A stretch of 12,902 bases of DNA from a virus. The translations under genes were made by a program, and so were the position numbers. This document shows, piece after piece, positions 862 through 12,902 of this stretch. The notes under the pieces are model-generated. The model was not told where the DNA came from and did not search any database. It saw nothing but the letters and a program-made list of their open reading frames with translations. The DNA is taken from the UHGV virus genome UHGV-0134334. One strand, 5' to 3'. Positions within the stretch are counted from its first letter, which is position 1, and the number at the start of each line of letters is the position of its first letter.

Positions 862-877
862 ATGGTGTCCCCTGCAG
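862..877 (-). other. Prophage attR core: 16-bp copy of the argW tRNA 3' end (CTGCAGGGGACACCAT on the minus strand)
   Basis: The minus strand reads CTGCAGGGGACACCAT, which is the end of the T-stem, the acceptor stem and CCA of tRNA-Arg (argW) as I recall it. Upstream tRNA sequence is absent, so this is a partial copy typical of an att core. Host DNA (dsdC) lies on one side and phage DNA (torI) on the other. Confidence 0.6.
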
Positions 878-950: not shown

Positions 951-1151
951 TTACCCATTGGCGCGGCTTAAGAGCTTATTTTTGAATTCACAATGGTCAC
1001 GATATAACCATCTTGCTCGCCCGTGGATAACTTTGGCTTTAGGCAGGTCGCCGGACTTAATCCGGTCGTAGATGAAGGTCTTACCGAAGCCAGTATCAGC
1101 CATGATGAATTTCAAATCAACCAGTGAATCAGGTTGTAGTTCGTGTTGCAT
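951..1151 (-). CDS. torI: Excisionase / recombination directionality factor TorI (KplE1-type Xis)
   Basis: The 66-aa ORF (MQHELQPDSLVDLKFIMADTGFGKTFIYDRIKSGDLPKAKVIHGRARWLY..) matches E. coli TorI in size and position, directly inside attR and convergent with dsdC. An RBS (GGAGA) sits 9 nt upstream of the ATG. Confidence 0.8.
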   Translation of the reverse strand: MQHELQPDSLVDLKFIMADTGFGKTFIYDRIKSGDLPKAKVIHGRARWLYRDHCEFKNKLLSRANG

Positions 1152-1192
1152 GAGTGCTATCTCCGAATAGGGAATCGAACCTGCAAATCAGG

Positions 1193-1217
1193 CAATAAAA
1201 AACCGCCATCAGGCGGC
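1193..1217 (-). terminator. Rho-independent terminator (minus strand) between the small early-left ORF and torI
   Basis: Minus-strand hairpin GCCGCC-UGAU-GGCGG followed by UUUUUUAUU. It overlaps the stop codon of the upstream small ORF. Confidence 0.5.
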
Positions 1218-1376
1218 TTGGTGTTCTTTCAGTTCTTCAATTCGAATATTGGTTACGTCTGCATGTGCTATCTGCGCCCATATCATCCAGTGGTCATAGC
1301 AGTCGTTGAAGTCCTCTGCTTCGATACGAGCGATTTCCTCTTTCATTCTCGTAGTTAAGCGGATTGATGACATATT
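1209..1376 (-). CDS. Small hypothetical early-left protein (55 aa from the internal ATG; the longest ORF extends to 1442)
   Basis: ORF 1209..1442. The internal ATG at 1376 is preceded by GAGAGG with 7-nt spacing (..GAGAGGAATTAATATGTCATCA..). No recognisable family. Confidence 0.4.
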   Translation of the reverse strand, partial: NMSSIRLTTRMKEEIARIEAEDFNDCYDHWMIWAQIAHADVTNIRIEELKEHQAA

Positions 1377-1438
1377 AATTCCTCTCAAATAAGTGGTTTG
1401 CTGCCAAAACAATGAACCATCCGGAAATTCCAGATAGT

Positions 1439-1666
1439 TCATAATTCACTCTTCAATACTTCCAACTTACTAATCGCCGATAGATATCCGCGCTGATAGG
1501 GAATCATCATTCCTTCGAGCTTGCCACTTCTTAACTCCTCCCTGAGCAATTGTATTGCTTGATCAATAACCTCTGCCTTAGCGTCCTTTATGGCTTGCTT
1601 GCGGGGCTTTGCTTTCTGCTTTGGCAGATTTCTCAAGCATGATGGAATGTATGTCTGATTCATCAC
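1439..1666 (-). CDS. Hypothetical early-left protein (75 aa)
   Basis: ORF directly downstream of and abutting the N-like gene in the same orientation. Basic, with predicted coiled coil. No recognisable family. Confidence 0.45.
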   Translation of the reverse strand: MMNQTYIPSCLRNLPKQKAKPRKQAIKDAKAEVIDQAIQLLREELRSGKLEGMMIPYQRGYLSAISKLEVLKSEL

Positions 1667-2050
1667 TTACCTCGCTGTCAGTTGCTTTGATTTCCGGTAG
1701 CCTGCCGCGTAAATGGCTACGTTTGGAAGACATACACCAGTTTCTGGTTGCTTATGTCCAAACTCATTCGCGTACACAATGGCCGCTCTCTCCAGATTGC
1801 GTCTGTATTCTTTCTGTTGCCAGATCACGTCCTGTGCCATGAACTTAATTGGCTTAGCGTCTTCTATGCGCTCAGGCGTTTCGTGAGTACCTTTAGCCTG
1901 AATCTGCGCTCTGCTTAGAGTAGGGCGGTGTAATACTTCTGAACTTATTGCTTCTTCGCGGGCCAGTACGCCGTTAGCTAATGCCTTTGCCTTTAAACGC
2001 TCACGACGACGAGAACGTGAATTGCCTTTGAACTGAGTTCTGCGTGTCAT
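1667..2050 (-). CDS. N-type transcription antitermination protein, P22 gp24-like
   Basis: The 127-aa ORF has an arginine-rich N-terminal motif (..GNSRSRRRERLKAK..) and a C-terminus (..VAIYAAGYRKSKQLTAR) closely resembling the P22 gene 24 product (..ALYAAGHRKSKQITAR). It sits downstream of pL with a GACAA-loop boxB in its leader. Confidence 0.75.
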   Translation of the reverse strand: MTRRTQFKGNSRSRRRERLKAKALANGVLAREEAISSEVLHRPTLSRAQIQAKGTHETPERIEDAKPIKFMAQDVIWQQKEYRRNLERAAIVYANEFGHKQPETGVCLPNVAIYAAGYRKSKQLTAR

Positions 2051-2646: not shown

Positions 2647-3018
2647 TTACTTAAGAACGAGTCCGTTTAAGGCATCAAGGATTTTGGAAACATAACTTCC
2701 AAAAATGTAGGCGCAAAATGCGAACACGAAACTGACAACGACCGCAGATGCCTTGATGGTGATTTTTGCTGAGCTAATGCTTGTCTCAATACCTGACAGA
2801 CGAGAATCTACAGATTTTATATCTGACTTTACTTCAGCGAGATCGCGCTTGATGTATTCAACATCAGACTCTAGCTTTGCAACTCTAGCCTCAAGCATGT
2901 TACCTCCGCCGTTTCCTCCACCATGCCGTGAGTATGCATCATCAGTGGAATAGTGTCCAATTGGGCGAGATATGTTTTGATTTGGACGAAGCTGAGCAAC
3001 CTTGTTATCTAAACTCAT
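2647..3018 (-). CDS. Small membrane protein with a Gly-rich motif (HGGGNGGGN), a coiled coil and a C-terminal transmembrane anchor; accessory gene occupying the position lambda uses for rexB
   Basis: 123-aa ORF with a hydrophobic C-terminal helix (..ASAVVVSFVFAFCAYIFGSYV..), last gene of the cI operon. A strong internal SD (GGAGGT) precedes the in-frame ATG at 2898, giving an alternative 83-aa form. Paralogous to ORF 9198..9533. Confidence 0.55.
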   Translation of the reverse strand: MSLDNKVAQLRPNQNISRPIGHYSTDDAYSRHGGGNGGGNMLEARVAKLESDVEYIKRDLAEVKSDIKSVDSRLSGIETSISSAKITIKASAVVVSFVFAFCAYIFGSYVSKILDALNGLVLK

Positions 3019-3442
3019 CGCGAACTGATCCTGTTATCTTCACGTCAAAAAACGAACTTTTTACATCAATTACTTCGCCTTTATCAGGATTAACCAGTGA
3101 TGCTCTGACTTCGAATATCCCAGGCTTGATAATTTTCACCCTTGGGAAGTTAATTCTCATAGAAGTTGATACGATGGTTTCTCCATCGTTGGCTTCTGCT
3201 ACCGTAAAAAACTTATGGTTGGAGTACAGTTTTGTGTCAATTGGTATCGGTATTTCTTGAGCATTGAAAACCTCAATGCCTATGGAATATTTTTTTGTAG
3301 CCTTAAGGCCGATAAAAAAAGCGCCAAATGATAGATCCACTTCATGGGAGTCTTTATCCATTTCATAGATAAGAACTGGAGTTACTGGGTTGCCTTCATC
3401 CATCGCAATCGGAATGATATAAGAAATACGTTCTTTAATCAT
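3005..3442 (-). CDS. Hypothetical soluble protein (145 aa); accessory gene occupying the position lambda uses for rexA
   Basis: ORF starts 8 nt downstream of the cI stop and overlaps ORF123 by 14 nt. AT-rich relative to cI. No transmembrane segment and no recognisable family. Confidence 0.55.
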   Translation of the reverse strand: MIKERISYIIPIAMDEGNPVTPVLIYEMDKDSHEVDLSFGAFFIGLKATKKYSIGIEVFNAQEIPIPIDTKLYSNHKFFTVAEANDGETIVSTSMRINFPRVKIIKPGIFEVRASLVNPDKGEVIDVKSSFFDVKITGSVRDEFR

Positions 3443-3449
3443 TTACGTG

Positions 3450-4166
<717 letters not shown>

Positions 4167-4173
4167 TTAAATC

Positions 4174-4239
4174 TATCACCGCAAGGGATAAATATCTAAC
4201 ACCGTGCGTGTTGACTATTTTACCTCTGGCGGTGATAAT
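4174..4239. promoter_or_regulatory. Lambda OR3-OR2-OR1 operators with divergent pRM and pR promoters
   Basis: TATCACCGCAAGGGATA (OR3), TAACACCGTGCGTGTTG (OR2) and TACCTCTGGCGGTGATA (OR1), with pR -35 TTGACT and -10 GATAAT. The cro RBS (TAAGGAGGT) follows. Confidence 0.9.
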
Positions 4240-4254
4240 GGTTGCATGTACTAA

Positions 4255-4464
<210 letters not shown>

Positions 4465-4502
4465 GTAACACCGCTATTTTCACAATGGACATTCGTCCTA
4501 CG

Positions 4503-4517
4503 TCGCTGACAAAGCGA
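4503..4517 (+). promoter_or_regulatory. nutR boxB hairpin, P22 type (UCGCU-GACAA-AGCGA)
   Basis: A 5-bp stem with GACAA pentaloop between cro and cII. A boxA-like CGCTATTTT lies upstream at about 4471-4479. It is not the lambda nutR sequence. Confidence 0.55.
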
Positions 4518-4602
4518 GTCCCAATATATCTGACCAACTAAGGCCATATGCGTTTCCACGCATACCTTTCAACTAACTATTCACTATTGGAAATATTAAG
4601 AA

Positions 4603-4899
4603 ATGACACAAGCAAGTTACAGCAAGCCAACACAGCGAGAAATTGATCGCGCTGAAACTGATTTACTCATCAACCTGTCAACGCTTACCCAGCGCGGTCT
4701 GGCAAAGATGATTGGCTGTCATGAATCGAAGATAAGCAGAACGGACTGGAGGTTTATTGCTTCGGTCTTGTGTGCTTTTGGAATGGCATCAGACATCAGT
4801 CCGATTAGTAGGGCTTTTAAGTATGCGCTTGATGAAATCACAAAGAAAAAATCCCCGGCCGCCACCGAGGATTTTAAGCAAATTGATATGCAATTCTGA
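4603..4899 (+). CDS. cII: CII-family transcriptional activator (divergent from lambda CII)
   Basis: 98-aa ORF with a helix-turn-helix region and a C-terminus (..KKKSPAATEDFKQIDMQF) paralleling lambda CII (..KKRPAATERSEQIQMEF), in the syntenic position after cro and nutR. Confidence 0.75.
   Translation: MTQASYSKPTQREIDRAETDLLINLSTLTQRGLAKMIGCHESKISRTDWRFIASVLCAFGMASDISPISRAFKYALDEITKKKSPAATEDFKQIDMQF
4612..4625 (-). promoter_or_regulatory. CII-binding site (TTGC-N6-TTGC) of a pRE-like promoter reading leftward
   Basis: Plus strand GCAAGTTACAGCAA gives TTGCTGTAACTTGC on the minus strand, a direct TTGC repeat with 6-nt spacing at the 5' end of the cII-like gene, as for lambda pRE. A candidate -10 (TAATAT) lies downstream on the minus strand. 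Confidence 0.5.
4855..4881 (-). terminator. tO-like terminator of a possible OOP-type antisense RNA at the cII 3' end
   Basis: Minus-strand hairpin CCUCGG-UGGCGG-CCGGGG followed by AUUUUUUU, encoded by the cII codons for KKSPAATE, the same place as the lambda oop terminator. Confidence 0.4.
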
Positions 4900-4931
4900 G
4901 GTAATTACTGGATCAACCCACAGGAGTCATT

Positions 4932-5078
4932 ATGACAAAACAACTCAGTCCTTACCAGGACAAAATTCACAAACACATACTACGTGATCGCTTCCTGTCC
5001 AGCTTCAAGCAGCCTGGTCGATTCCGGGCTGAGTTGGAAAAAGTGAAGCTGATGCAGAAGGAGAAAGGTCATGAGTAA
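4932..5078 (+). CDS. Small hypothetical protein (48 aa) translationally coupled to the O-like gene
   Basis: ATG at 4932 preceded by AGGAG. Its stop overlaps the start of the next gene (ATGAGTAA). Below the length cutoff of the supplied ORF track. Confidence 0.35.
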
Positions 5079-5970
5079 CATATCTAATCTAGCCGAAGCC
5101 AGAGAGGCCAGAAGGCTACAACAACCGCATCAAAGCAGCGGTAAGGGGTATGCCTTGCTGCACCGTAAAATTATGGATGTGCCGTTTTACAAGGACGCAG
5201 AAGCTGCGCATCTGTGGGTTCACTTAATCCTCAAAGCAAAGCATACGCCTGAGTATGTAATGACTGACGCAGGAGAAATTCTGGTAGGCAGAGGGAAGCT
5301 ACTTGGCGGTAGAAACTCTCTGGCGTTTGAAACAGGACTCAAACCAGATCGCGTTCAGTACCTGCTTAGAAAGTTCAAAAAACTCGGCATGATTGACTGG
5401 GTTTCACACGGTAGATTCTCAGTTTTCTCGGTAGAGAAATATGACGATTATCAGTCAAATTTTGTACCAGCAGATTACCAGCAAATTACCACCTCAAAGC
5501 CAGAAATACCAATGCCTGTAAGCAATACTGTACCAGCAGATTACCAGCAAATTACCACAGATAAAGAATATAATAATATTATCTCTAATACTGACGTATT
5601 AGAGAGTGCCACAGCAGACAAAAAGTCTGACAAGAAAAAACCTTCCGTTAGCTGTCAGGATATTGTCGATGCTTACCACGAAATCCTTCCTGAAGCGCCA
5701 AAAATCCGCGCACTGAATGACAAGCGTAAAAACCAGATCCGAACGTTCTGGCGCAAAGCCGGAGTGATAACCCGCCAGCTTGACGGGCATGGGTTCACGA
5801 TGCAGGACTGGAGAAATTATTTGAGCTACGTAGGCGAAAATTGCCGATGGATGTTCGAAGAACGCCCAAACCATCAACGCGGAACCGTCTGGCACAAAAA
5901 GGGATTTGATTTCCTGCTTAACGACAATACCTACCTGAAAGTTCGTGAGGGTGAACACGATGACCGATAA
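5071..5970 (+). CDS. Replication initiator, lambda O / P22 gp18-like, containing the origin iterons
   Basis: 299-aa ORF in the position of O/gene 18, after cII and before a DnaB-like helicase gene. It has internal iterons plus an AT-rich tract, and a strong RBS (AAGGAG). Confidence 0.6.
5464..5595. repeat. Candidate replication origin: four 12-bp iterons (CAGCAGATTACC / CAGCAAATTACC, twice) followed by an AT-rich tract
   Basis: The 29-bp segment GTACCAGCAGATTACCAGCAAATTACCAC occurs at 5464-5492 and again at 5530-5558, each holding two 12-mer sub-repeats. AGATAAAGAATATAATAATATTATCTCTAATA follows. The arrangement matches ori-lambda, which lies inside O. Confidence 0.55.
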
Positions 5971-6376
5971 TTTTTATGCGCCGCCCCATAGCATCGAGGC
6001 AGAGCAGGCGGTGATTGGTGGATTGCTTCTGGATGATGACAGCAGTGAGCGCGTCCAGAAAGTTCTGGCGATGCTGAAGCCTGATTCATTTTACAGCCGA
6101 CCACACAAAATCCTTTTCGAAGAGATAACCAGAATGCACCGGGAGCAAAAGCCAGTAGATGGCCTGACGCTTTTCGATGAACTGGAGCGTAAATCGTTAA
6201 CGGCGTCTGTTGGCGGTTTTGCTTATATCGCTGAGATCGCAAAGAACACGCCAAGCGCCGCAAACATCGTTGCCTATGCAATGCAGGTTCGCGAAACCGC
6301 AATGGAACGCTACGCCATCAACCGCATGACTGAAGCGACGGAATTGCTCTACGCGAAGGTGAGCAAGTGCAGGTAA
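5960..6376 (+). pseudogene. DnaB-family replicative helicase (P22 gene 12-like), N-terminal domain only, 3'-truncated
   Basis: The translation (..PPHSIEAEQAVIGGLLLDD..FYSRPHKILFEEI..SVGGFAYIAEIAKNTPSAANIVAYAMQVRE..) aligns with the N-terminal domain of E. coli DnaB. The ORF ends after about 138 aa with no Walker A or RecA-like domain. Start ATG at 5960 with RBS GAGGG. Confidence 0.7.
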
Positions 6377-6729
6377 AACGCACTGATGGAATATTCGGCA
6401 CACTTGGTAACTATGTTAGCCAATTATCTAACGGCAAGATGCTGAATAATGAGCAAGTCCAGGACTTAATCAACACCTCAAAACTGATGGCAAATACTGA
6501 AGGCCAAAAGTTTAATCAGCAAATGGATGATTATCTTTCAACTTATGGAGATTCTCTCCCCAGCGGACTAACTAAGCAATTGCAATCCAGAAAAGCCAAG
6601 CTGTATGAAGATATTCAGCAGCCTGCACAACAACAGAGCAATAACCAACAACCGACAAATACCCAACAGCAGCAGAGTCAATCCGGATCATATACCTCAA
6701 AATCAGGCATTCAATTTACGGTGGAATGA
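6367..6729 (+). CDS. Hypothetical Gln-rich protein, possibly the 3' remnant of a P22 gp20-like ejection protein gene
   Basis: 120-aa ORF beginning at the deletion junction and translationally coupled (ATGA overlap) to the downstream 708-aa ejection-protein-like gene. The assignment is by synteny only. Confidence 0.35.
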
Positions 6730-8852
6730 TGAAAGTAACTGCAAACGGTAAGACATTTACCTTCCCTGACGGTACGAGCACGGAAGATATTGGCTCCGCC
6801 ATTGATGAGTATTTTGCTGGTCAGGCTGTTCAGCAACAAACAGTTAATCAGGCCAATAATGAACAAGCACGTGAAGAACCATCATTGATGCAACAAGCTG
6901 GCGATTGGCTCACTGGTGGTCAAAGTGCAGGGCAAATTGCAGAACAGGCTGGTCGTGGTCTGGTAAACATACCATTTGACGTATTGCAGGGTGGCGCAAG
7001 TCTGATTAATGCAATCAGTCAGGGGCTTGGTGGGCCAAAAGTATTGGATGATGTCTATCGTCCAGTCGATCGACCGACAGACCCTTACGCGCAAGCCGGT
7101 GAAACAATTGGTGGGTATCTCCTGCCAATTGGCACAGCGGCAAAAGCTGCTGGAGCGCCAGCAAAGCTCGCTGGAGATATCGGTTCCGCAGGAAACATGA
7201 TTGCAGGTTCTCTTGCTGATGCTGCAAATCAGGAGGGCGACTTTGCACAAAATGCTGCCATTAACGGTGGTATCAATATTGGTGCTCAAGGCGTTCTTTC
7301 AGGTGTCGGGCGCGTTATTGCGCCAAGGGTTTCACAGGCTCTTGGTGGTGCAGCACTGAATTCTGCTAATGATGTTTCCAGGATGGCAAAGTCAGGTGCT
7401 GGGCGTCGGTCAATTGCCAGTCAGGCCGCTAATGTGTCCGAAGATGTAGCAAAAGCGGCTGAGTCTGCTGGAATTGATATAAACGCATTAACACCAGGAA
7501 TGCGATCTGGAAGTCGTGGAATTGCACAAGCTGAAGGCGCATTGGCATCAACACCAGGAATTGTTCAGGACGCCCATCAGGCAGCATTTAACGAAATATC
7601 ATCAAAGTTAAGTCGAAACCTTGATGAATTTGGGGCCGCATCTGGAACGGCATCAGAAAAAAGTGCGGCTATAAAACAAAGGATTCTTCAAAATCTTGAT
7701 CAGATGAAGGATGCCGAGCGCGCGGCATGGGATGACGTGCGGTCAACAATGCCAAATCAAAAAGCAAGAATGCTAAATGGTAATGCCGTTATTCAGGCAG
7801 AGCGATCTGCTGGCATACCACTTACTCCTGAAATGAAACAGTTTGTTCAGGCAAACAATCAAGGTGGAGTAACATTTGATGGCATGAAAGCATGGAGAGC
7901 GAAATTTGCTGATGCGGAGCAAAAATATAAGCGTAGCGGAGAGGCAAATGCGGCAAGGAGAGCAGGGGAAATACGCCGGGCAATTACTGATGATATGCGC
8001 ACAATGGCGGAAAACGGCGGATTTCTTGATGACTGGCAGAAAGCTAATGATCTGTCTAAAGCGAGGTTATCAGCACAAGAGAGTGCAGAGTCTGTTTTCG
8101 GGCGTGATTTGGCAACAGATGCACTGATTACGAATGGAGTAAAATCCCTTCAATCATCGTCAGCTAAAGGTCTTAATGGTCCTGCTGGGTTCCATTCTAT
8201 GATCCGCGCGCTGCCAGAATCAGAGCGTGTTCCTGCTATATCATCAATGTTGCAAGATGCTATCTCGCATGGTGTGCGTGGTGGCAAAGCTGATGCAGCA
8301 GGAATTAACCATATCGCAGGGATACTTACCCCACAAAATGTAAAAGCCATTAGCAGATATTCCTCAGATCTCGGAAGAATTGCTGATGCATATGGCACTC
8401 TTGCAAGAGCGGCAGTGAAACCTCAGCAGTATATTGAAAGAACAGGGAGAACTGCCAATGTACTACGCGATCTGGATGCTGGTTTATCCAACGTCACATC
8501 AACAGTGTTAAATGCAATTGCCAACTCAACATCAGGTGCCATTGTTGGTGGCGCTGGAGGGGGTATTGCAGGCGCTGCCGCGGGTGCTTTAGTTGGCGCC
8601 GGGTTAAAAGGTGCTGTATCTAAAATTGCCACCACGCGTAGCGGTCGATATGCGATAGAGAAAGCAGTTCAGGAAGCCACGAAAGCAGTAAGAGCTGGCG
8701 GAAGTAAAGAAGCATTAGCGGCGGCGGAACGCAGATTTATGGCAAATAAAGCCGCCGTAAAAGCAATACGTGATGCAGTTGGAAACGAAGAGTTCAATCG
8801 CTTAGCGAGGGCTGGCATTGTAGCGTCGCTAAGCGGAATAGCACAGGAGTAA
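6726..8852 (+). CDS. DNA ejection/injection (E-protein) family protein, P22 gp16-like
   Basis: 708-aa Ala/Gly-rich protein with a Gly/Ala-rich C-terminal segment (..[24 protein letters not shown]..). It sits immediately upstream of the immI-like region, as gene 16 does in P22-like genomes. The assignment is by synteny and composition, not by a verified alignment. Confidence 0.45.
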
Positions 8853-9176
8853 TTAATCATCCATGGATGGATTGAGCTTATCTCGTGTTGATGTGGCGAT
8901 TTGTCCTACATTCCTAAGCCAAGATTTCAAATCCTTGATATTGTCATTGATTTCATGAATATCTTCTTTTTTTAGTCTGTTAATATTATTCTCAATAATT
9001 TCAATGGATTGCTCAATATCAGATATAGTGAATGATAGTTTGTTCTTCTCATCTTTTATTGAGTTTTTAAGTGCTTCGTTCTCAGTCTTGAGGTCAGATA
9101 TCTTTTGTTTTAAAGATGCCAGTTGGTACTGAACCACAATGAGTGCGATAGCTATCACGATAACTGTTGTATACAC
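8853..9176 (-). CDS. Small membrane protein with an N-terminal transmembrane helix and coiled coil (107 aa); last gene of the mnt operon
   Basis: Hydrophobic N-terminus (MYTTVIVIAIALIVVQYQ) followed by heptad-rich sequence. RBS GGAG 7 nt upstream. AT-rich. Its stop abuts the stop of the convergent ejection-protein gene (TAATTA). Confidence 0.55.
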   Translation of the reverse strand: MYTTVIVIAIALIVVQYQLASLKQKISDLKTENEALKNSIKDEKNKLSFTISDIEQSIEIIENNINRLKKEDIHEINDNIKDLKSWLRNVGQIATSTRDKLNPSMDD

Positions 9177-9197
9177 ACAAATCTCCTTAGTTAGTAG

Positions 9198-9533
9198 CTA
9201 TTTGGTAACCAAGGCAATAAACAGCGGAGCAAGGATTGCAGATATCATGAGGGCGATAAGCCACTTCTGATTCTCGTCCATCTTATCTGCTAGGCGACGC
9301 TCCATTCCGTGCATGTCGCCACGGATGCCAATCAACTCTTTTCTAGTTTCTGATATTAGCTTTTCTTGGTTGGCGGCAATCGTTTCAATGCGGGTCATTC
9401 TACTGTTCATATCTGATCCTCCTCCATAGCCACCTCCATGTGCTGGCTCTTCTGAGTCTTCAATTCCGATGGGGGCAAATTCGCTATTCGGAAAAGGATT
9501 GTCAGCATCGTAAGCCAACTTCAACTTAGACAT
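9198..9533 (-). CDS. Small membrane protein with a Gly-rich motif (HGGGYGGGS), coiled coil and C-terminal transmembrane anchor; paralog of ORF 2647..3018
   Basis: 111-aa ORF with a C-terminal hydrophobic helix (..WLIALMISAILAPLFIALV..) and shared PIG..HGGGxGGG..M motifs with ORF123. The Gly codons (GGAGGAGGA) form an SD before the in-frame ATG. Overlaps the upstream ORF by 8 nt. Confidence 0.55.
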   Translation of the reverse strand: MSKLKLAYDADNPFPNSEFAPIGIEDSEEPAHGGGYGGGSDMNSRMTRIETIAANQEKLISETRKELIGIRGDMHGMERRLADKMDENQKWLIALMISAILAPLFIALVTK

Positions 9534-9891
9534 TGCTGTTTTTCTCCCTTAGATACCAGCTTAACACAACACCTGTGTTGTACTGCATAATGTATCCGCA
9601 ATGCTTGCAAATTACATGATAAGAGTAATTTATTGGGTTGAATGATTCATCTTCGTTTTTTATATATTCACCATAATGGGCATGCCTACCCATGATGTCT
9701 TTTCCATTATCCTGATTTACAAATTGAACTTGAGGGACAACCATTTCAGACTGCCCGCACATTGGGCATTCGTCTGGAACACCTTTAGCTCTCAAGAAAG
9801 AGTCGAGAACCTTTGTAGTTATAGACGATAGCGCCTTGCGATATTCAGCCTCTCGCAGTTGATCGTCTGAGTATCCTGAATTGTCACTCAT
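9526..9891 (-). CDS. Zinc-ribbon protein (two CxxC pairs), translationally coupled to mnt (121 aa)
   Basis: CPMCGQ and CKHCGY motifs about 50 aa apart. The start codon overlaps the mnt stop (ATGA). No recognisable family. Confidence 0.55.
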   Translation of the reverse strand: MSDNSGYSDDQLREAEYRKALSSITTKVLDSFLRAKGVPDECPMCGQSEMVVPQVQFVNQDNGKDIMGRHAHYGEYIKNEDESFNPINYSYHVICKHCGYIMQYNTGVVLSWYLREKNSNV

Positions 9892-10139
9892 TTTTCATCC
9901 TTACCATACATGGTCTTTAGCGTCTCAACATCGCGTTCAAGATCTATCAATCGTGATGCTATAGTTGCAAGGTCTAGTGCTTGAATGTGTTTATTTTTTT
10001 CGGTCCACGCTTCAAGTGCCGCGACCATCTCAGCATTTAATGAACGAGAATTAGCCTCAGCCAGTTCAATAAGACGTTCCTTTATCTCTACAGGAAGCCT
10101 CAGATTCACTTGAGGGTTTTTGTACTTACGATCAGACAT
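9888..10139 (-). CDS. mnt: Mnt-like ribbon-helix-helix repressor (Arc/MetJ superfamily)
   Basis: The 83-aa ORF is the same length as P22 Mnt. Its N-terminal region (..NLRLPVEIKERLIELAEANSRSLNAEMVAAL..) resembles the Mnt/Arc RHH motif and it has a C-terminal coiled coil. It is divergent from arc-ant. Confidence 0.7.
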   Translation of the reverse strand: MSDRKYKNPQVNLRLPVEIKERLIELAEANSRSLNAEMVAALEAWTEKNKHIQALDLATIASRLIDLERDVETLKTMYGKDEK

Positions 10140-10174
10140 CGGCGCATCCTGAATAATTTTTTACCACAGGATAT

Positions 10175-10214
10175 GTAGGTATCTATTGACTATCAATGCG
10201 TACCTAAATACTAT
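10175..10214. promoter_or_regulatory. Divergent mnt/arc-ant promoter region with an imperfect palindromic operator
   Basis: Palindrome GTAGGTA-tct-ATTGA-cta-TCAAT-gcg-TACCTA (10175-10207). It overlaps a plus-strand -35 TTGACT (10186-10191) and -10 TACTAT (10209-10214), 17-bp spacer, upstream of arc. Confidence 0.45.
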
Positions 10215-10244
10215 GTATGCGTACCACATACAACGGAGGATGCA

Positions 10245-10385
10245 ATGAAGGTAAAAACACTGCGTATGCCAGAGAAGCTAGAAAAAATTCTTGAAGAAAA
10301 AGCAAAGGAAGAGTGCCGCTCATTCAGCGCAGAAGTAATTAAACGGGTGCTGGACAGCCTGAGGAGAGAGGGGATAACGGTGTGA
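10245..10385 (+). CDS. arc: Arc-like ribbon-helix-helix repressor (46 aa)
   Basis: Translation MKVKTLRMPEKLEKILEEKAKEECRSFSAEVIKRVLDSLRREGITV resembles P22 Arc (..FNLRWPREVLDLVRKVAEENGRSVNSEIYQRVMESFKKEG..). Strong RBS GGAGGA 4 nt upstream. Immediately upstream of ant. Below the ORF-track length cutoff. Confidence 0.65.
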   Translation: MKVKTLRMPEKLEKILEEKAKEECRSFSAEVIKRVLDSLRREGITV

Positions 10386-10418
10386 TTCGCTTGGATGCGG
10401 CAAAGAAATCAAAACAGT

Positions 10419-10450
10419 GAAGCCCCAACTGCGGGAACAGTCAGGGCTTC
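10419..10450. other. Stable hairpin in the arc-ant intergenic region; possible sar-like antisense RNA terminator or attenuator
   Basis: GAAGCCC-(18 nt)-GGGCTTC inverted repeat. On the minus strand it is followed by a T-rich tract (ACTGTTTTGATTTCTTTG). Confidence 0.3.
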
Positions 10451-10483
10451 GGTATCGTAAAACCACGCATAGGAATTAACGAC

Positions 10484-11407
10484 ATGAAAAGTATAGCAAC
10501 AGCAGTATCTACTATCAATGTACCATTCCACGGCGCAGAGCTTTATGTTGTCAATCACAACGGCGAACCGTATACCCCAATGAAACCTATCGTTGAGGGA
10601 ATGGGGCTAGACTGGAAATCTCAACATAAGAAGATTTCTCAACGCTTCTCGAAGGGTATGGTGGAAATCACCATACCTTCTGCCGGTGGGGTGCAAGCCA
10701 TGATTTGTATGGCTTTACGAAAATTGGCAGCTTGGTTGAACAGCATCAGTCCTAACAAAGTCCGCCCTGAAATCCGCGATAAGGTAATCCAGTATCAGGA
10801 AGAGTGTGACGATGTGCTCTACGACTACTGGACTAAAGGCCATGTAGTTAACCCACGCAAAGCTAAAAAGGCGTTGCCGGGTAAAATCACCACTGAACAG
10901 CAGGAAGCCATTAAACAACTCGTCATGAGTCGCGGTCAGTCTCTGCCAAAAGAAAAACAGGCGAAGGCAATGATTACCATGTGGTCGTCACTGAAATCTC
11001 ATTTTGGGTGTTCATACAAAGAAATCAGCGATGAGCAGTTTACCGAAGCTCTGTCACTTGCAGCTCGCGTTCCGCTTGAAGGCGAGTTAATCGGCAAACA
11101 AGAGAAGAAAGCAAACGAGCTTTCTGCAAAAGAAGCAAACAGCCTTGTATGGTTATGGGATTATGCCAACCGCTCACAGGCATTATTCCGCGAACTGTAT
11201 CCGGCGCTAAAACAAATTCAATCGAACTATTCAGGCAGATGCTACGACTACGGTCATGAGTTCTCGTATGTTATCGGAATGGCAAGAGACGTTTTAATCA
11301 ATCGCACACGAGATGTTGATATTAATGAGCCAGACGGACCAACGAATCTTTCCGCATGGATGAGACTTAAGAATAAAGAATTACCTCCTTCAGTACATAA
11401 CTACTGA
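10484..11407 (+). CDS. ant: Antirepressor Ant (P22 Ant-like N-terminal domain)
   Basis: The 307-aa ORF has an N-terminus (..VPFHGAELYVVNHNGEPYTPMKPIVEGMGLDWKSQHKKI..) typical of phage antirepressor N-terminal domains. It follows arc and is opposed by mnt, the P22 immI arrangement. Confidence 0.8.
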   Translation: MKSIATAVSTINVPFHGAELYVVNHNGEPYTPMKPIVEGMGLDWKSQHKKISQRFSKGMVEITIPSAGGVQAMICMALRKLAAWLNSISPNKVRPEIRDKVIQYQEECDDVLYDYWTKGHVVNPRKAKKALPGKITTEQQEAIKQLVMSRGQSLPKEKQAKAMITMWSSLKSHFGCSYKEISDEQFTEALSLAARVPLEGELIGKQEKKANELSAKEANSLVWLWDYANRSQALFRELYPALKQIQSNYSGRCYDYGHEFSYVIGMARDVLINRTRDVDINEPDGPTNLSAWMRLKNKELPPSVHNY

Positions 11408-11507: not shown

Positions 11508-12851
11508 ATGACAGACATTACAGCCAATGTGATCGTATCGATGCCTTCGCAACTTTTCACTATGGCGCGTTCTTTTAAAGCCGTAGCCAATGGCAAAATT
11601 TATATCGGTAAAATTGACACTGACCCGGTAAATCCAGAAAACCAGATTCAGGTTTATATGGAGAATGAAGACGGCTCTCACGTTCCTGTTTCGCAACCAA
11701 TCATCATTAACGCTGCTGGTTACCCTGTATATAACGGACAGATTGCCAAGTTCGTTACTGTGCAAGGCCATTCTATGGCTGTTTATGATGCATACGGTGC
11801 GCAGCAGTTCTATTTTCCTAATGTGCTGAAGTATGACCCTGATCAATTAAGACAGGAGCTATCTAAGCAGACTGATGGTTATTTTTTTAACCTTCCTCAA
11901 GGTGGTGTACTACATGATGCAATAAAGTATGTAACACCAGAAATGTATATCAATACATCTTCAGATATTACATCTGCTATACAAAGCGCATTTGACAATG
12001 GAAATGTGATTGATATGTCAGGTAGAGACTGGACTCTTGAGAGAACAATCCATGTCGGTGATGGCACTGAAATAAAGTTAGGCGCATCAACAATTACATG
12101 TCAACTTGGTTCTAAACCTGCTTTTGACTTTAGAGGAACAGATAAAGGACTCTTGGTCACAGGAGGTAAGTTTATTGGTAATTGCTCTGCAGTATTTTAT
12201 TTCCAAGGGACTACTGCTTTCCCTTCTCAATCAGGTCACTATGCAAGAAAAATAAGAATATACGGCACAGATGCTACTTCAGATACGGATGAGATAATTG
12301 ATTTCATCTATATGAAGGACGCTGTAAGGCAAGTTTTTATTGATTCATGTTATGCATATGTAAAAAACGGCATTACTGCAAGCGGAAAATGTGTGGAGGT
12401 GAAAGTCCAAAAAAGCATATTCAACTCAGGAACTTCCGATCAAAGTTCTTCTAGAATAAGTCTAAATTCACCGTCAGGAGCAAGTTATTACAACGAAGGT
12501 TGGCATTTTAGTGATTGTACAATTGATGGAGTTGGAAAATCATTTAATGTTACCGATATATATTCGTTAACCATCAATGGAGGATTTATCGGTGGTGAGG
12601 TTGCGTTTGGACAGCCAATAACAACACATTGCCGTGAGATCGTACTCGGTGGTGGATTAATCATGAAAGGGCGTGTTACTTTCACGCCAACCGTACAATA
12701 TGACTACAGGGCCAACATATCTCCTTCTCTTATGTTTGGTAATGGTGGAGTTGGAAACGTGGTCCTTAATGCAGGTGCTTCAGGCATCAACGTTAGCACA
12801 AAACTTGAAAGTTCTGGTGTTTCAGGAGGAACTGGCGTTATTGTTAATTGA
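11508..12851 (+). CDS. Tailspike protein: P22 gp9-like N-terminal head-binding domain plus a divergent beta-helix receptor-binding domain; probably 3'-truncated by IS insertion
   Basis: The N-terminal roughly 110 aa ([63 protein letters not shown]) align closely with the P22 tailspike head-binding domain. Its stop codon TGA is formed by the first bases of an IS3-like terminal repeat (TGATCC..). At 447 aa it is short for a tailspike. Confidence 0.75.
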
Positions 12852-12902
12852 TCCTACCCACGTAATATGGACACAGGCCTAAGCGAGGTTCTGGTTTTCA
12901 AA
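12849..12902. mobile_element. IS3-family insertion sequence terminal inverted repeat (partial element, cut by the window end)
   Basis: TGATCCTACCCACGTAATATGGACACAGGCCTAAGCGAGG resembles the IS3 left end as I recall it (TGATCTTACCCAGCAATAGTGGACACGCGGCTAAGTGAG), with the TG start characteristic of IS3-family ends. Confidence 0.5.

What the first reader, a model, noticed from the sequence alone, without database searches (positions are those of the whole stretch)
5960..6729. Large internal deletion joining a truncated DnaB-like helicase gene to a DNA-ejection gene fragment
The helicase ORF has only the DnaB N-terminal domain (about 138 aa) and then runs into an unrelated ORF that is coupled to a gp16-like ejection gene. 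Everything a P22-like genome carries between replication and ejection genes is missing: the nin region, late antiterminator, lysis genes, terminase, portal, scaffold and coat. The prophage is therefore defective, yet keeps its repressors, antirepressor and accessory cassettes.
Basis: inference. Interest (0 to 1): 0.5.

Follow-up and report, generated by a model that had tools for sequence, protein, structure and literature searches.

The report
Deletion-crippled P22-like prophage remnant
A roughly 21-kb internal deletion has joined the first 130 codons of a phage helicase gene to the tail end of a DNA-ejection gene, leaving an ordinary defective P22-like prophage in an E. coli gut lineage.

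Summary

- **Left side of the junction.** Window 5960-6376 encodes a 138-aa protein. Its first 130 codons are the 5' end of an HK620-type DnaB-like helicase gene P, which is 478 aa when intact. Identity stops at base 6351.
- **Right side of the junction.** From base 6350 the DNA is the last 126 codons of a P22 gp20-type ejection gene, in a different reading frame. An intact gp16 gene follows.
- **Join.** The two parents overlap only by "TA", which is not more than chance would give.
- **Size.** In an intact relative that carries both parental sequences (E. coli AVS0578 prophage) the breakpoints lie 21,476 bp apart. The lost interval holds the helicase ATPase domain, the nin genes, Q, lysis, terminase, portal, scaffold, coat, head-completion genes and gp7.
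- **Not an artefact.** Near-identical copies (0-3 mismatches) occur on contigs from several gut metagenome data sets built with different assemblers.
- **Rarity.** The junction is absent from 5,426 complete E. coli genomes.
- **Further lesions.** A 5.8-kb deletion of the PL operon lies at 1326/1327, and an IS3 insertion truncates the tailspike at 12850.

This is routine prophage decay by illegitimate recombination, at the same argW/dsdC site as K-12's defective KplE1/CPS-53. Interest is low.

The parts
862..877 (-). attR core (CTGCAGGGGACACCAT) of the argW-type integration module. This is the left boundary of the prophage, next to host dsdC (36-767).
   Evidence: Exact match to the KplE1 core quoted in PMC2951348, with 0 expected by chance. 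Homology to HK620 starts here at its attP core.
951..1151 (-). torI (excisionase / recombination directionality factor), intact, 66 aa
   Evidence: Annotated torI at the same position in intact relatives. Matches PHROG 66, excisionase.
1209..1442 (-). Chimeric ORF spanning a second deletion junction at 1326/1327. About 5.8 kb of the PL operon is lost.
   Evidence: Window 1085-1326 equals L019 1-242, and window 1322-1408 equals L019 6001-6087. The two halves hit different PHROGs: 37429 for the N-terminal part and 676 for the C-terminal part.
1667..2050 (-). Antiterminator N, intact
   Evidence: Pfam N_peptide and PHROG 271.
2647..3442 (-). Two accessory ORFs (123 aa and 145 aa) downstream of cI, at the position rexAB occupies in lambda. 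Function unknown.
   Evidence: PHROG 6136 and PHROG 5893, both of unknown function. No significant PADLOC defence-model hit. The same pair is present in the intact relative L019.
3450..4163 (-). Lambda-type cI repressor, intact, 237 aa
   Evidence: Matches PDB 3bdn lambda repressor over 236 residues, 518 bits. Pfam HTH_3 plus Peptidase_S24.
4264..4899 (+). cro (4264-4464) and cII (4603-4899), intact
   Evidence: PF09048 Cro. Phage_CII.
5071..5970 (+). Replication initiator O, intact. It should contain the origin at about 5463-5558, by position relative to the HK620 annotation.
   Evidence: 99% DNA identity to HK620 O. The HK620 rep_origin at 10369-10464 maps inside the window's O gene. PHROG 345.
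5960..6376 (+). P': truncated DnaB-like helicase gene. It has 130 native codons, then 8 out-of-frame codons (…YAKVSKCR) read from gp20 DNA, then a TAA stop.
6350..6351 (.). Deletion junction. The dinucleotide TA is shared by both parents.
   Evidence: The left parent is identical through 6351 and the right parent is identical from 6350.
6352..6729 (+). 'gp20: the 3' remnant (codons 318-443) of the ejection/translocase gene. It lacks the Inj_translocase domain. The first possible start in frame is GTG 6367.
6726..8852 (+). gp16-type DNA transfer (ejection) protein, full length, 708 aa
   Evidence: PHROG 770 covered 1-667 of 668. PF26808 Phage_P22_gp16. 99.5% DNA identity to intact prophage L004.
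8853..9891 (-). Three small accessory ORFs (107, 111 and 121 aa) at the position sieA occupies in P22. Function unknown.
   Evidence: The same three ORFs are present in intact relatives. PHROGs 5962, 6324 and 4293, all of unknown function.
9888..11407 (.). immI region: mnt (9888-10139, minus strand), arc (10245-10385, plus strand) and antirepressor ant (10484-11407, plus strand)
   Evidence: Pfam Arc, P22_AR_N and P22_AR_C. Same layout as epsilon34.
11508..12851 (+). Tailspike gene truncated at 447 aa (631 aa in the closest intact homologue). The stop codon is supplied by the IS end.
   Evidence: Head_binding domain. Homology to the ETEC1738 tailspike ends at 12848.
12850..12902 (+). Terminal inverted repeat and first bases of an IS3 element. 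It runs off the end of the window.
   Evidence: Matches thousands of annotated IS3 copies in E. coli. All metagenome contigs end here.

Best explanation
The window is one arm-to-arm remnant of a P22-like (Lederbergvirus) prophage. It is integrated at the argW attachment site next to dsdC in an E. coli lineage from the human gut.

**The event.** A single illegitimate, RecA-independent, essentially homology-free recombination event removed about 21.5 kb. The deletion runs from codon 131 of the helicase gene P to codon 317 of the ejection gene 20.

**What was lost** (shown by comparison with intact relatives):
- the helicase ATPase domain;
- the nin region;
- Q and the late promoter;
- the lysis cassette;
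- all head and packaging genes;
- gp7.

**Inferred consequences:**
- After cI inactivation the element cannot load a helicase at its origin.
- It cannot switch on late transcription, lyse the cell or build particles.
- It is therefore locked in place and inherited vertically.
- P', 'gp20 and probably gp16 are silent relics downstream of PR. P' terminates 25 nt after the join. 'gp20 is in another frame with only a GTG start.

**What remains intact** and could still confer lambda-type immunity and whatever the accessory genes do: the cI/cro/cII/N module, mnt-arc-ant and the accessory ORFs.

**Further decay.** Two further lesions show continuing decay: a 5.8-kb PL-operon deletion, and an IS3 insertion in the tailspike.
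For: - **Base-level breakpoints with both parents.** HK620-type P is identical up to 6351. gp20 is identical from 6350.
- **Both endpoints in one intact prophage.** They lie 21,476 bp apart in AVS0578, with 99.4% identity on the right arm and 96.9% on the left. HK620 gives 99% identity on the left.
- **Domain losses.** P' lacks DnaB_C, and 'gp20 lacks Inj_translocase.
- **Frames.** The frames differ, and P' stops at 6374-6376.
- **Prophage ends identified.** attR core at 862-877. The torI/dsdC context is identical to intact prophages at this site. In relatives the right arm leads to intS-argW.
- **Junction reproduced.** It appears in at least 28 contigs from several ENA metagenome data sets and two kinds of contig naming (k119/k127 and NODE_), with 0-3 mismatches.
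- **Additional lesions.**
- **Known precedent.** KplE1/CPS-53 is a defective prophage at the same site (PMC2951348).
Against: - The true progenitor is not in hand, so the deletion size (19.5-21.5 kb) is inferred from relatives.
- What lies beyond the IS3 at the window's right end is unknown. Whether intS and attL survive is also unknown.
- No expression or induction data exist, so the words 'silent' and 'defective' are inferences from gene content.
- A 2-bp overlap is expected by chance in about 16% of random joins. It therefore says nothing specific about the joining mechanism.
Confidence: 0.93

Rival explanations
1. The join arose by recombination between two different prophages. These could be two tandem lysogens at argW, or a lambdoid prophage elsewhere carrying HK620-type P. 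This differs from a deletion inside one prophage.
For: - HK620-type O/P modules occur in many unrelated lambdoid and Stx prophages.
- In 403 of 5,426 genomes one or other half of the junction is present, and some genomes have 2-3 places.
- The immunity and replication modules of the relatives used here are mosaic.
Against: - Both outer ends (attR-torI on the left; mnt-arc-ant-tailspike on the right) are the two ends of one argW-type P22-like prophage in every intact relative examined.
- HK620 and the AVS0578 prophage show that this P type and a P22-like ejection-gene arm (in AVS0578 the same gp20 type) coexist in single genomes in the same orientation and order.
- A tandem-lysogen origin would give the same product and the same biological conclusion.
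Confidence: 0.04
2. The junction is an assembly chimera: a metagenome mis-join between two prophages.
For: The window appears to come from a metagenome assembly. Prophage repeats do break these assemblies, since contigs end at IS3.
Against: - The identical junction and identical context are found in at least 28 contigs from multiple samples and data sets with different contig-naming styles.
- One of these is a 55-kb contig that extends into host genes.
- The copies are 99.96-100% identical to the window.
- A chimera would not recur at the same base with only a 2-bp overlap.
Confidence: 0.01
3. The remnant is a selected, domesticated module and not passive debris. For example, the helicase N-domain fragment or the retained ejection protein might have a host-beneficial or anti-phage role, with the deletion endpoints shaped by selection.
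For: - The element persists in a lineage seen in several gut data sets.
- The regulatory and accessory genes are intact.
- The literature holds that cryptic prophages can benefit hosts (PMC3105296, listed).
Against: - All copies are essentially identical, so there is no evolutionary depth from which to infer purifying selection.
- The retained arms are 99-99.5% identical to live phages, which points to a recent event.
- P' ends in 8 nonsense-derived residues, and 'gp20 lacks its own start and its conserved domain.
- There are no defence-model hits.
- No independent recurrence of an N-domain-only P gene was found.
Confidence: 0.03

Closest known systems
KplE1 / CPS-53 defective prophage of E. 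coli K-12
   Same: - Same attachment site (argW) and the same 16-nt core.
- Same torI excisionase at the dsdC-proximal end.
- Also a P22-like remnant reduced to about 10 kb by loss of lytic genes (PMC2951348).
   Different: - KplE1 has lost its cI module and is not SOS-inducible (PMC2951348).
- This remnant keeps a lambda-type cI/cro/cII/N module, O, mnt-arc-ant and gp16.
- Its deletion endpoints can still be read at base level.
Coliphage HK620 (Lederbergvirus HK620)
   Same: - 99% DNA identity over hkaW-O-P (window 4907-6351).
- Same attP core and xis.
- Same overall gene order, with P22-type ejection genes and a head-binding tailspike domain.
   Different: - HK620 is a complete 38.3-kb phage.
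- Its immunity region, the 3' part of gene 20 and its gene 16 are divergent alleles (about 76% identity or no match).
- Its immI region is itself a remnant.
Intact P22-like prophages of E. coli AVS0578 (L020) and O25:NM 2014EL-1343-2 (L004/L005)
   Same: - Right arm (gp20 3' end through arc) is 99.4-99.5% identical.
- AVS0578 also has the HK620-type O/P module.
- The O25:NM prophage sits at the same dsdC/argW site.
   Different: They retain the 21.5-kb nin-to-gp7 block and the full PL operon. Their immunity types differ.
Classical cryptic lambdoid prophages of K-12 (Rac, DLP12, Qin, e14)
   Same: Products of large internal deletions and IS insertions that remove lysis and morphogenesis genes while leaving regulatory and accessory genes. 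This rests on established knowledge, and PMC3105296 is listed.
   Different: They belong to different phage lineages, sit at different sites and are much older. Their junctions are generally no longer traceable to near-identical live phages.

Membership tests
P22-like (Lederbergvirus) temperate phage / prophage | Ejection-protein genes 20 and 16 in that order, upstream of the immI region and tailspike | tested here: met
   'gp20 matches PHROG 917 and gp16 matches PHROG 770 / PF26808. The order gp20-gp16-(small ORFs)-mnt-arc-ant-tailspike is the same as in epsilon34 and in E. coli prophages.
P22-like (Lederbergvirus) temperate phage / prophage | Tailspike with the P22 head-binding N-terminal domain | tested here: met
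   PF09008 Head_binding covered 1-113 of 113, E=3.6e-67.
P22-like (Lederbergvirus) temperate phage / prophage | Complete morphogenesis and lysis module (terminase, portal, scaffold, coat, gp4/10/26, holin/endolysin) | tested here: not met
   None of these genes lies between attR (862) and the tailspike. They occupy the 21.5-kb interval that is missing relative to AVS0578. The element is therefore a remnant and not a complete member.
argW-integrating KplE1/HK620/Sf6 recombination module | 16-nt att core plus a TorI-type RDF at the prophage end opposite intS | tested here: met
   Exact core at 862-877. torI at 951-1151. intS and attL lie outside the window and could not be checked.
DnaB-like replicative helicase (phage P, P22 gp12 type) | N-terminal DnaB domain | tested here: met
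   PF00772, E=3.5e-32.
DnaB-like replicative helicase (phage P, P22 gp12 type) | C-terminal RecA-type ATPase domain (DnaB_C with Walker motifs) | tested here: not met
   P' has no DnaB_C. Intact HK620 P has it at residues 190-445. P' cannot be filed as a helicase.
Defective (cryptic) prophage | Loss of genes essential for replication, lysis and virion assembly through deletion or insertion, with the breakpoints interrupting ORFs | tested here: met
   Three lesions interrupt ORFs: P/gp20 at 6350-6351, the PL operon at 1326/1327, and tailspike::IS3 at 12850.
Defective (cryptic) prophage | Failure to yield infectious particles on induction | not testable with these tools
   Requires mitomycin C or UV induction of the strain.
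Phage satellite (PICI-type island) | Dedicated satellite gene set (own primase/rep, capsid-size redirection or packaging-hijack genes) with intact, co-adapted gene boundaries | tested here: not met
   All genes are 97-100% identical alleles of ordinary P22-like or lambdoid phage genes. The boundaries cut two ORFs out of frame. No satellite-type functions were found.

The most novel reading that the evidence does not exclude
The remnant might be kept because it does something. Two candidates can be named:
- The 130-residue DnaB N-domain fragment, expressed from PR on SOS induction or on superinfection, might poison the helicase or helicase-primase assembly of incoming phages with HK620-type P. 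That would be a dominant-negative exclusion device.
- The intact gp16, or the unknown small ORFs, might act as a defence or exclusion function.

Nothing found here excludes this. Nothing supports it beyond the persistence of one clone.
Probability: 0.03. Interest if true: 0.5.

Novelty: new member of a known kind. Interest (0 to 1): 0.12.

Why it matters
The main value is for annotation. The 138-aa "DnaB" and the 120-aa ORF should be labelled as pseudogene fragments, and the region as a defective prophage. It is also a clean, datable example of prophage decay:
- three lesions are still readable at base resolution against near-identical live phages;
- the site is the same hotspot that holds KplE1 in K-12;
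- the junction sequence could serve as a clone-specific marker for this E. coli lineage in gut metagenomes.

It opens no new mechanism.

Tried and rejected
- **Exact junction in one genome per GTDB species:** no match.
- **Junction in 5,426 complete E. coli genomes:** no genome spans it, only the separate halves. The host strain could not be named.
- **A free-standing N-domain helicase gene:** cluster members of 124-152 aa looked promising. All continue with normal P sequence and are contig-end partials, so this was rejected.
- **Defence-system models (PADLOC) on P', 'gp20 and seven accessory or junction ORFs:** only sub-threshold coiled-coil noise.
- **Pfam on the accessory ORFs:** nothing above the gathering score.
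- **Promoter/terminator scan around the junction:** no plus-strand promoter or terminator between 5800 and 9300, and fewer promoter-like sites than in shuffles. There is no sign of a new promoter created by the join.
- **Microhomology:** only 2 bp. My estimate is that at least 2 bp occurs by chance in about 16% of random joins, so no mechanistic inference was drawn.
- **Satellite (PICI) reading:** rejected on gene content and on the out-of-frame ORF cuts.
- **Structure prediction and deep protein searches:** judged unnecessary and not run.

Full report
**What is in the window.** ORF listing and family scans show, from left to right:
- the 3' end of a LysR-type host gene (36-767), annotated dsdC in E. 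coli genomes;
- torI, the excisionase (951-1151, minus strand);
- two small ORFs;
- antiterminator N (1667-2050, minus strand);
- two unknown ORFs;
- a repressor (3450-4163, minus strand) that matches the crystal-structure sequence of lambda cI over 236 residues;
- cro, cII and a small hkaW-like ORF;
- replication initiator O (5071-5970);
- the 138-aa DnaB-N-domain ORF (5960-6376);
- a 120-aa ORF (6367-6729);
- a full-length gp16-type DNA-transfer gene (6726-8852);
- three small minus-strand ORFs;
- mnt, arc and ant;
- a tailspike gene with the P22 head-binding domain (11508-12851).

The 16-nt argW-type att core quoted for KplE1 (PMC2951348) occurs once, at 862-877. That is exactly where homology to HK620 begins, at its attP core. 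The window therefore runs from the attR end of a P22-like prophage at the argW/dsdC site into its tailspike.

**Checking the observation.**
- Megablast against phage genomes splits the region cleanly. Window 5000-6351 is 99% identical to the hkaW-O-P segment of HK620 and of many lambdoid phages. The ejection genes match epsilon34, CUS-3 and others.
- HK620 P is 1,437 bp (478 aa). Only its first 392 bp are present here.
- A 301-bp probe across the junction hit 403 of 5,426 complete E. coli genomes, but only as halves. Bases 6200-6351 lay under 'DnaB-like helicase' genes and bases 6350-6500 under 'DNA transfer protein' genes. No genome spanned the join.
- Base-by-base alignment shows the P parent identical through 6351 and the gp20 parent identical from 6350. 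The shared dinucleotide is TA.

**Reading frames and domain content.**
- The P frame continues 8 codons into gp20 DNA (…LLY|AKVSKCR) and stops at TAA 6374-6376.
- The native gp20 frame is a different frame and is open only from 6334. Its first possible start is GTG 6367.
- The encoded 126 residues (318-443) are identical to the C-terminus of the 443-aa gp20 of an intact E. coli prophage.
- Full-length P has DnaB N (8-112) and DnaB_C (190-445). Full-length gp20 has its Inj_translocase domain at 12-219.
- Both fragments therefore lack the parts that define their functions. Otherwise the description is accurate.

**Size and content of the deletion.**
- E. coli AVS0578 carries an intact P22-like prophage with both the HK620-type O/P module and the same gp20/gp16 arm. 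There the two breakpoints lie 21,476 bp apart.
- In HK620 coordinates the gap is about 19.5 kb, from 11258 to 30746.
- In AVS0578 the interval contains the rest of P, HNH endonucleases, ninB through ninH, a phosphatase, Q, holin, endolysin, a spanin-type lysis gene, small and large terminase, portal, scaffold, coat, gp4, gp10, gp26, gp14 and gp7.
- A 2-bp overlap is expected in roughly 16% of random joins. The event is best described as illegitimate recombination without meaningful homology.

**Is it real, and how widespread is it?**
- An exact-sequence look-up of the 138-aa product found it in 37 blocks of the collection, and the 24 contigs read all carry it. The cluster look-up counts 28 contigs. 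They come from several ENA gut-metagenome data sets with different contig-naming styles.
- The gene neighbourhood is always the same. One 55-kb contig continues into emrY-dsdA-dsdX-dsdC.
- These copies differ from the window by 0-3 mismatches over 5-12.9 kb. This is one clonal allele and not an assembly artefact.
- The protein has no NCBI accession.
- The junction is absent from one-per-species GTDB genomes and from all complete E. coli genomes.
- Other 124-152-aa 'helicase DnaB' proteins in its 90% cluster all continue with the normal P sequence and are contig-end partials.

**Further lesions.**
1. *Left arm.* Homology to the torI side of intact relatives ends at 1326, and homology to the 5' end of an Nmad5-family gene near N begins at 1322-1325.
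   - In strain NCCP 13717, which has the same immunity module at the same site, these points are 5,758 bp apart.
   - That interval holds ea-type genes, a methyltransferase, an anti-RecBCD gene, erf and others.
   - The exact overlap is again TA.
   - The ORF across the join (1209-1442) hits one PHROG with its N-terminal part and a different PHROG with its C-terminal part.
2. *Right end.* Tailspike homology (631 aa in strain ETEC1738) ends at 12848.
   - An IS3 terminal repeat (TGATCCTACCCACG…) starts at 12850 and supplies the stop codon.
   - Every metagenome contig ends just inside this IS.

**Mechanism and consequences.**
- *Shown:* the element lacks a helicase ATPase domain, Q, the late-promoter region, lysis genes and all head genes. 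It has a truncated tailspike and no erf/abc recombination genes.
- *Inferred:* it cannot replicate autonomously, lyse the cell or form particles, and it is inherited vertically.
- *Inferred:* the intact lambda-type cI with cro/cII/N should still confer immunity to imm-lambda phages, and the immI genes may still be regulated.
- *Inferred:* P', 'gp20 and gp16 would be transcribed, if at all, only by read-through from PR. No new plus-strand promoter or terminator is evident near the join.
- None of this was tested experimentally.

**Comparison with what is known.**
- The closest described counterpart is KplE1/CPS-53 of K-12. It is a 10.2-kb defective prophage at the same argW site, with the same core and TorI, and it has lost its cI module (PMC2951348).
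- The present remnant is a younger and differently deleted member of the same kind.
- Large internal deletions and IS insertions are the standard route of prophage decay. This is established knowledge, and reviews are listed.

**Verdict.**
- The feature is ordinary. It is a new instance of a known kind, with low interest.
- The only non-trivial open possibility is that the fragment or the retained cassettes are functionally selected. The evidence neither supports nor excludes this.

Noticed in passing
window 1209-1442 (junction at 1326/1327): A second internal deletion has removed about 5.8 kb of the PL operon, measured in strain NCCP 13717. The lost genes include ea-type genes, a methyltransferase, an anti-RecBCD gene, erf and others. 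The join fuses the torI-proximal ORF to the first codons of an Nmad5-family gene. The exact overlap is again TA (CG-TA, 4 of 5 bases).
   Followed up: yes
window 12850-12902: An IS3 terminal repeat interrupts the tailspike gene after codon 446-447 of about 631 and provides its stop codon. All metagenome contigs carrying this prophage end here. It is therefore unknown whether the tailspike 3' end, intS and attL/argW still follow.
   Followed up: partly
window 3450-4464: The immunity region of this P22-like prophage is lambda's own. cI matches the lambda repressor chain 3bdn over 236 residues (518 bits), and the cro ORF carries the Cro Pfam family. The same module sits in an intact P22-like prophage at the same site in strain NCCP 13717 (L019).
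   Followed up: partly
window 2647-3018 (-) and 9198-9533 (-): Two small proteins appear to be distant paralogues. One lies downstream of cI and the other at the position sieA occupies in P22. Both hit PHROG 6324, and they share 23% identity (E=0.004). Each has a GGGxGGG motif, a coiled coil and a C-terminal hydrophobic segment. Similarity to XhlA/holin-like families is weak and sub-threshold. Function is unknown, with no PADLOC hit.
   Followed up: partly
window 6350-6351 and 1325-1326: Both deletion junctions share the same dinucleotide (TA) as their only exact overlap. This is probably coincidence, since an overlap of at least 2 bp is expected in about 16% of random joins.
   Followed up: no
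P gene, about codons 124-152 (window about 6330-6415 equivalent in relatives; proteins P0002-P0015): Many database 'helicase DnaB, partial' entries from E. coli, Shigella and Salmonella end at residues 124-152 because contigs break there. This suggests a mosaic or repeat boundary inside P, shared among co-resident prophages, a few codons from this deletion breakpoint.
   Followed up: partly
loci L006-L015 (metagenome contigs): The deleted prophage allele is found at 99.96-100% identity in gut metagenomes from several ENA data sets (ERZ27229783, the ERZ2663xxx series and the PRJNA217052 series). It is found in none of 5,426 complete E. coli genomes and has no NCBI protein record. The lineage circulates but is unrepresented among finished genomes.
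   Followed up: partly
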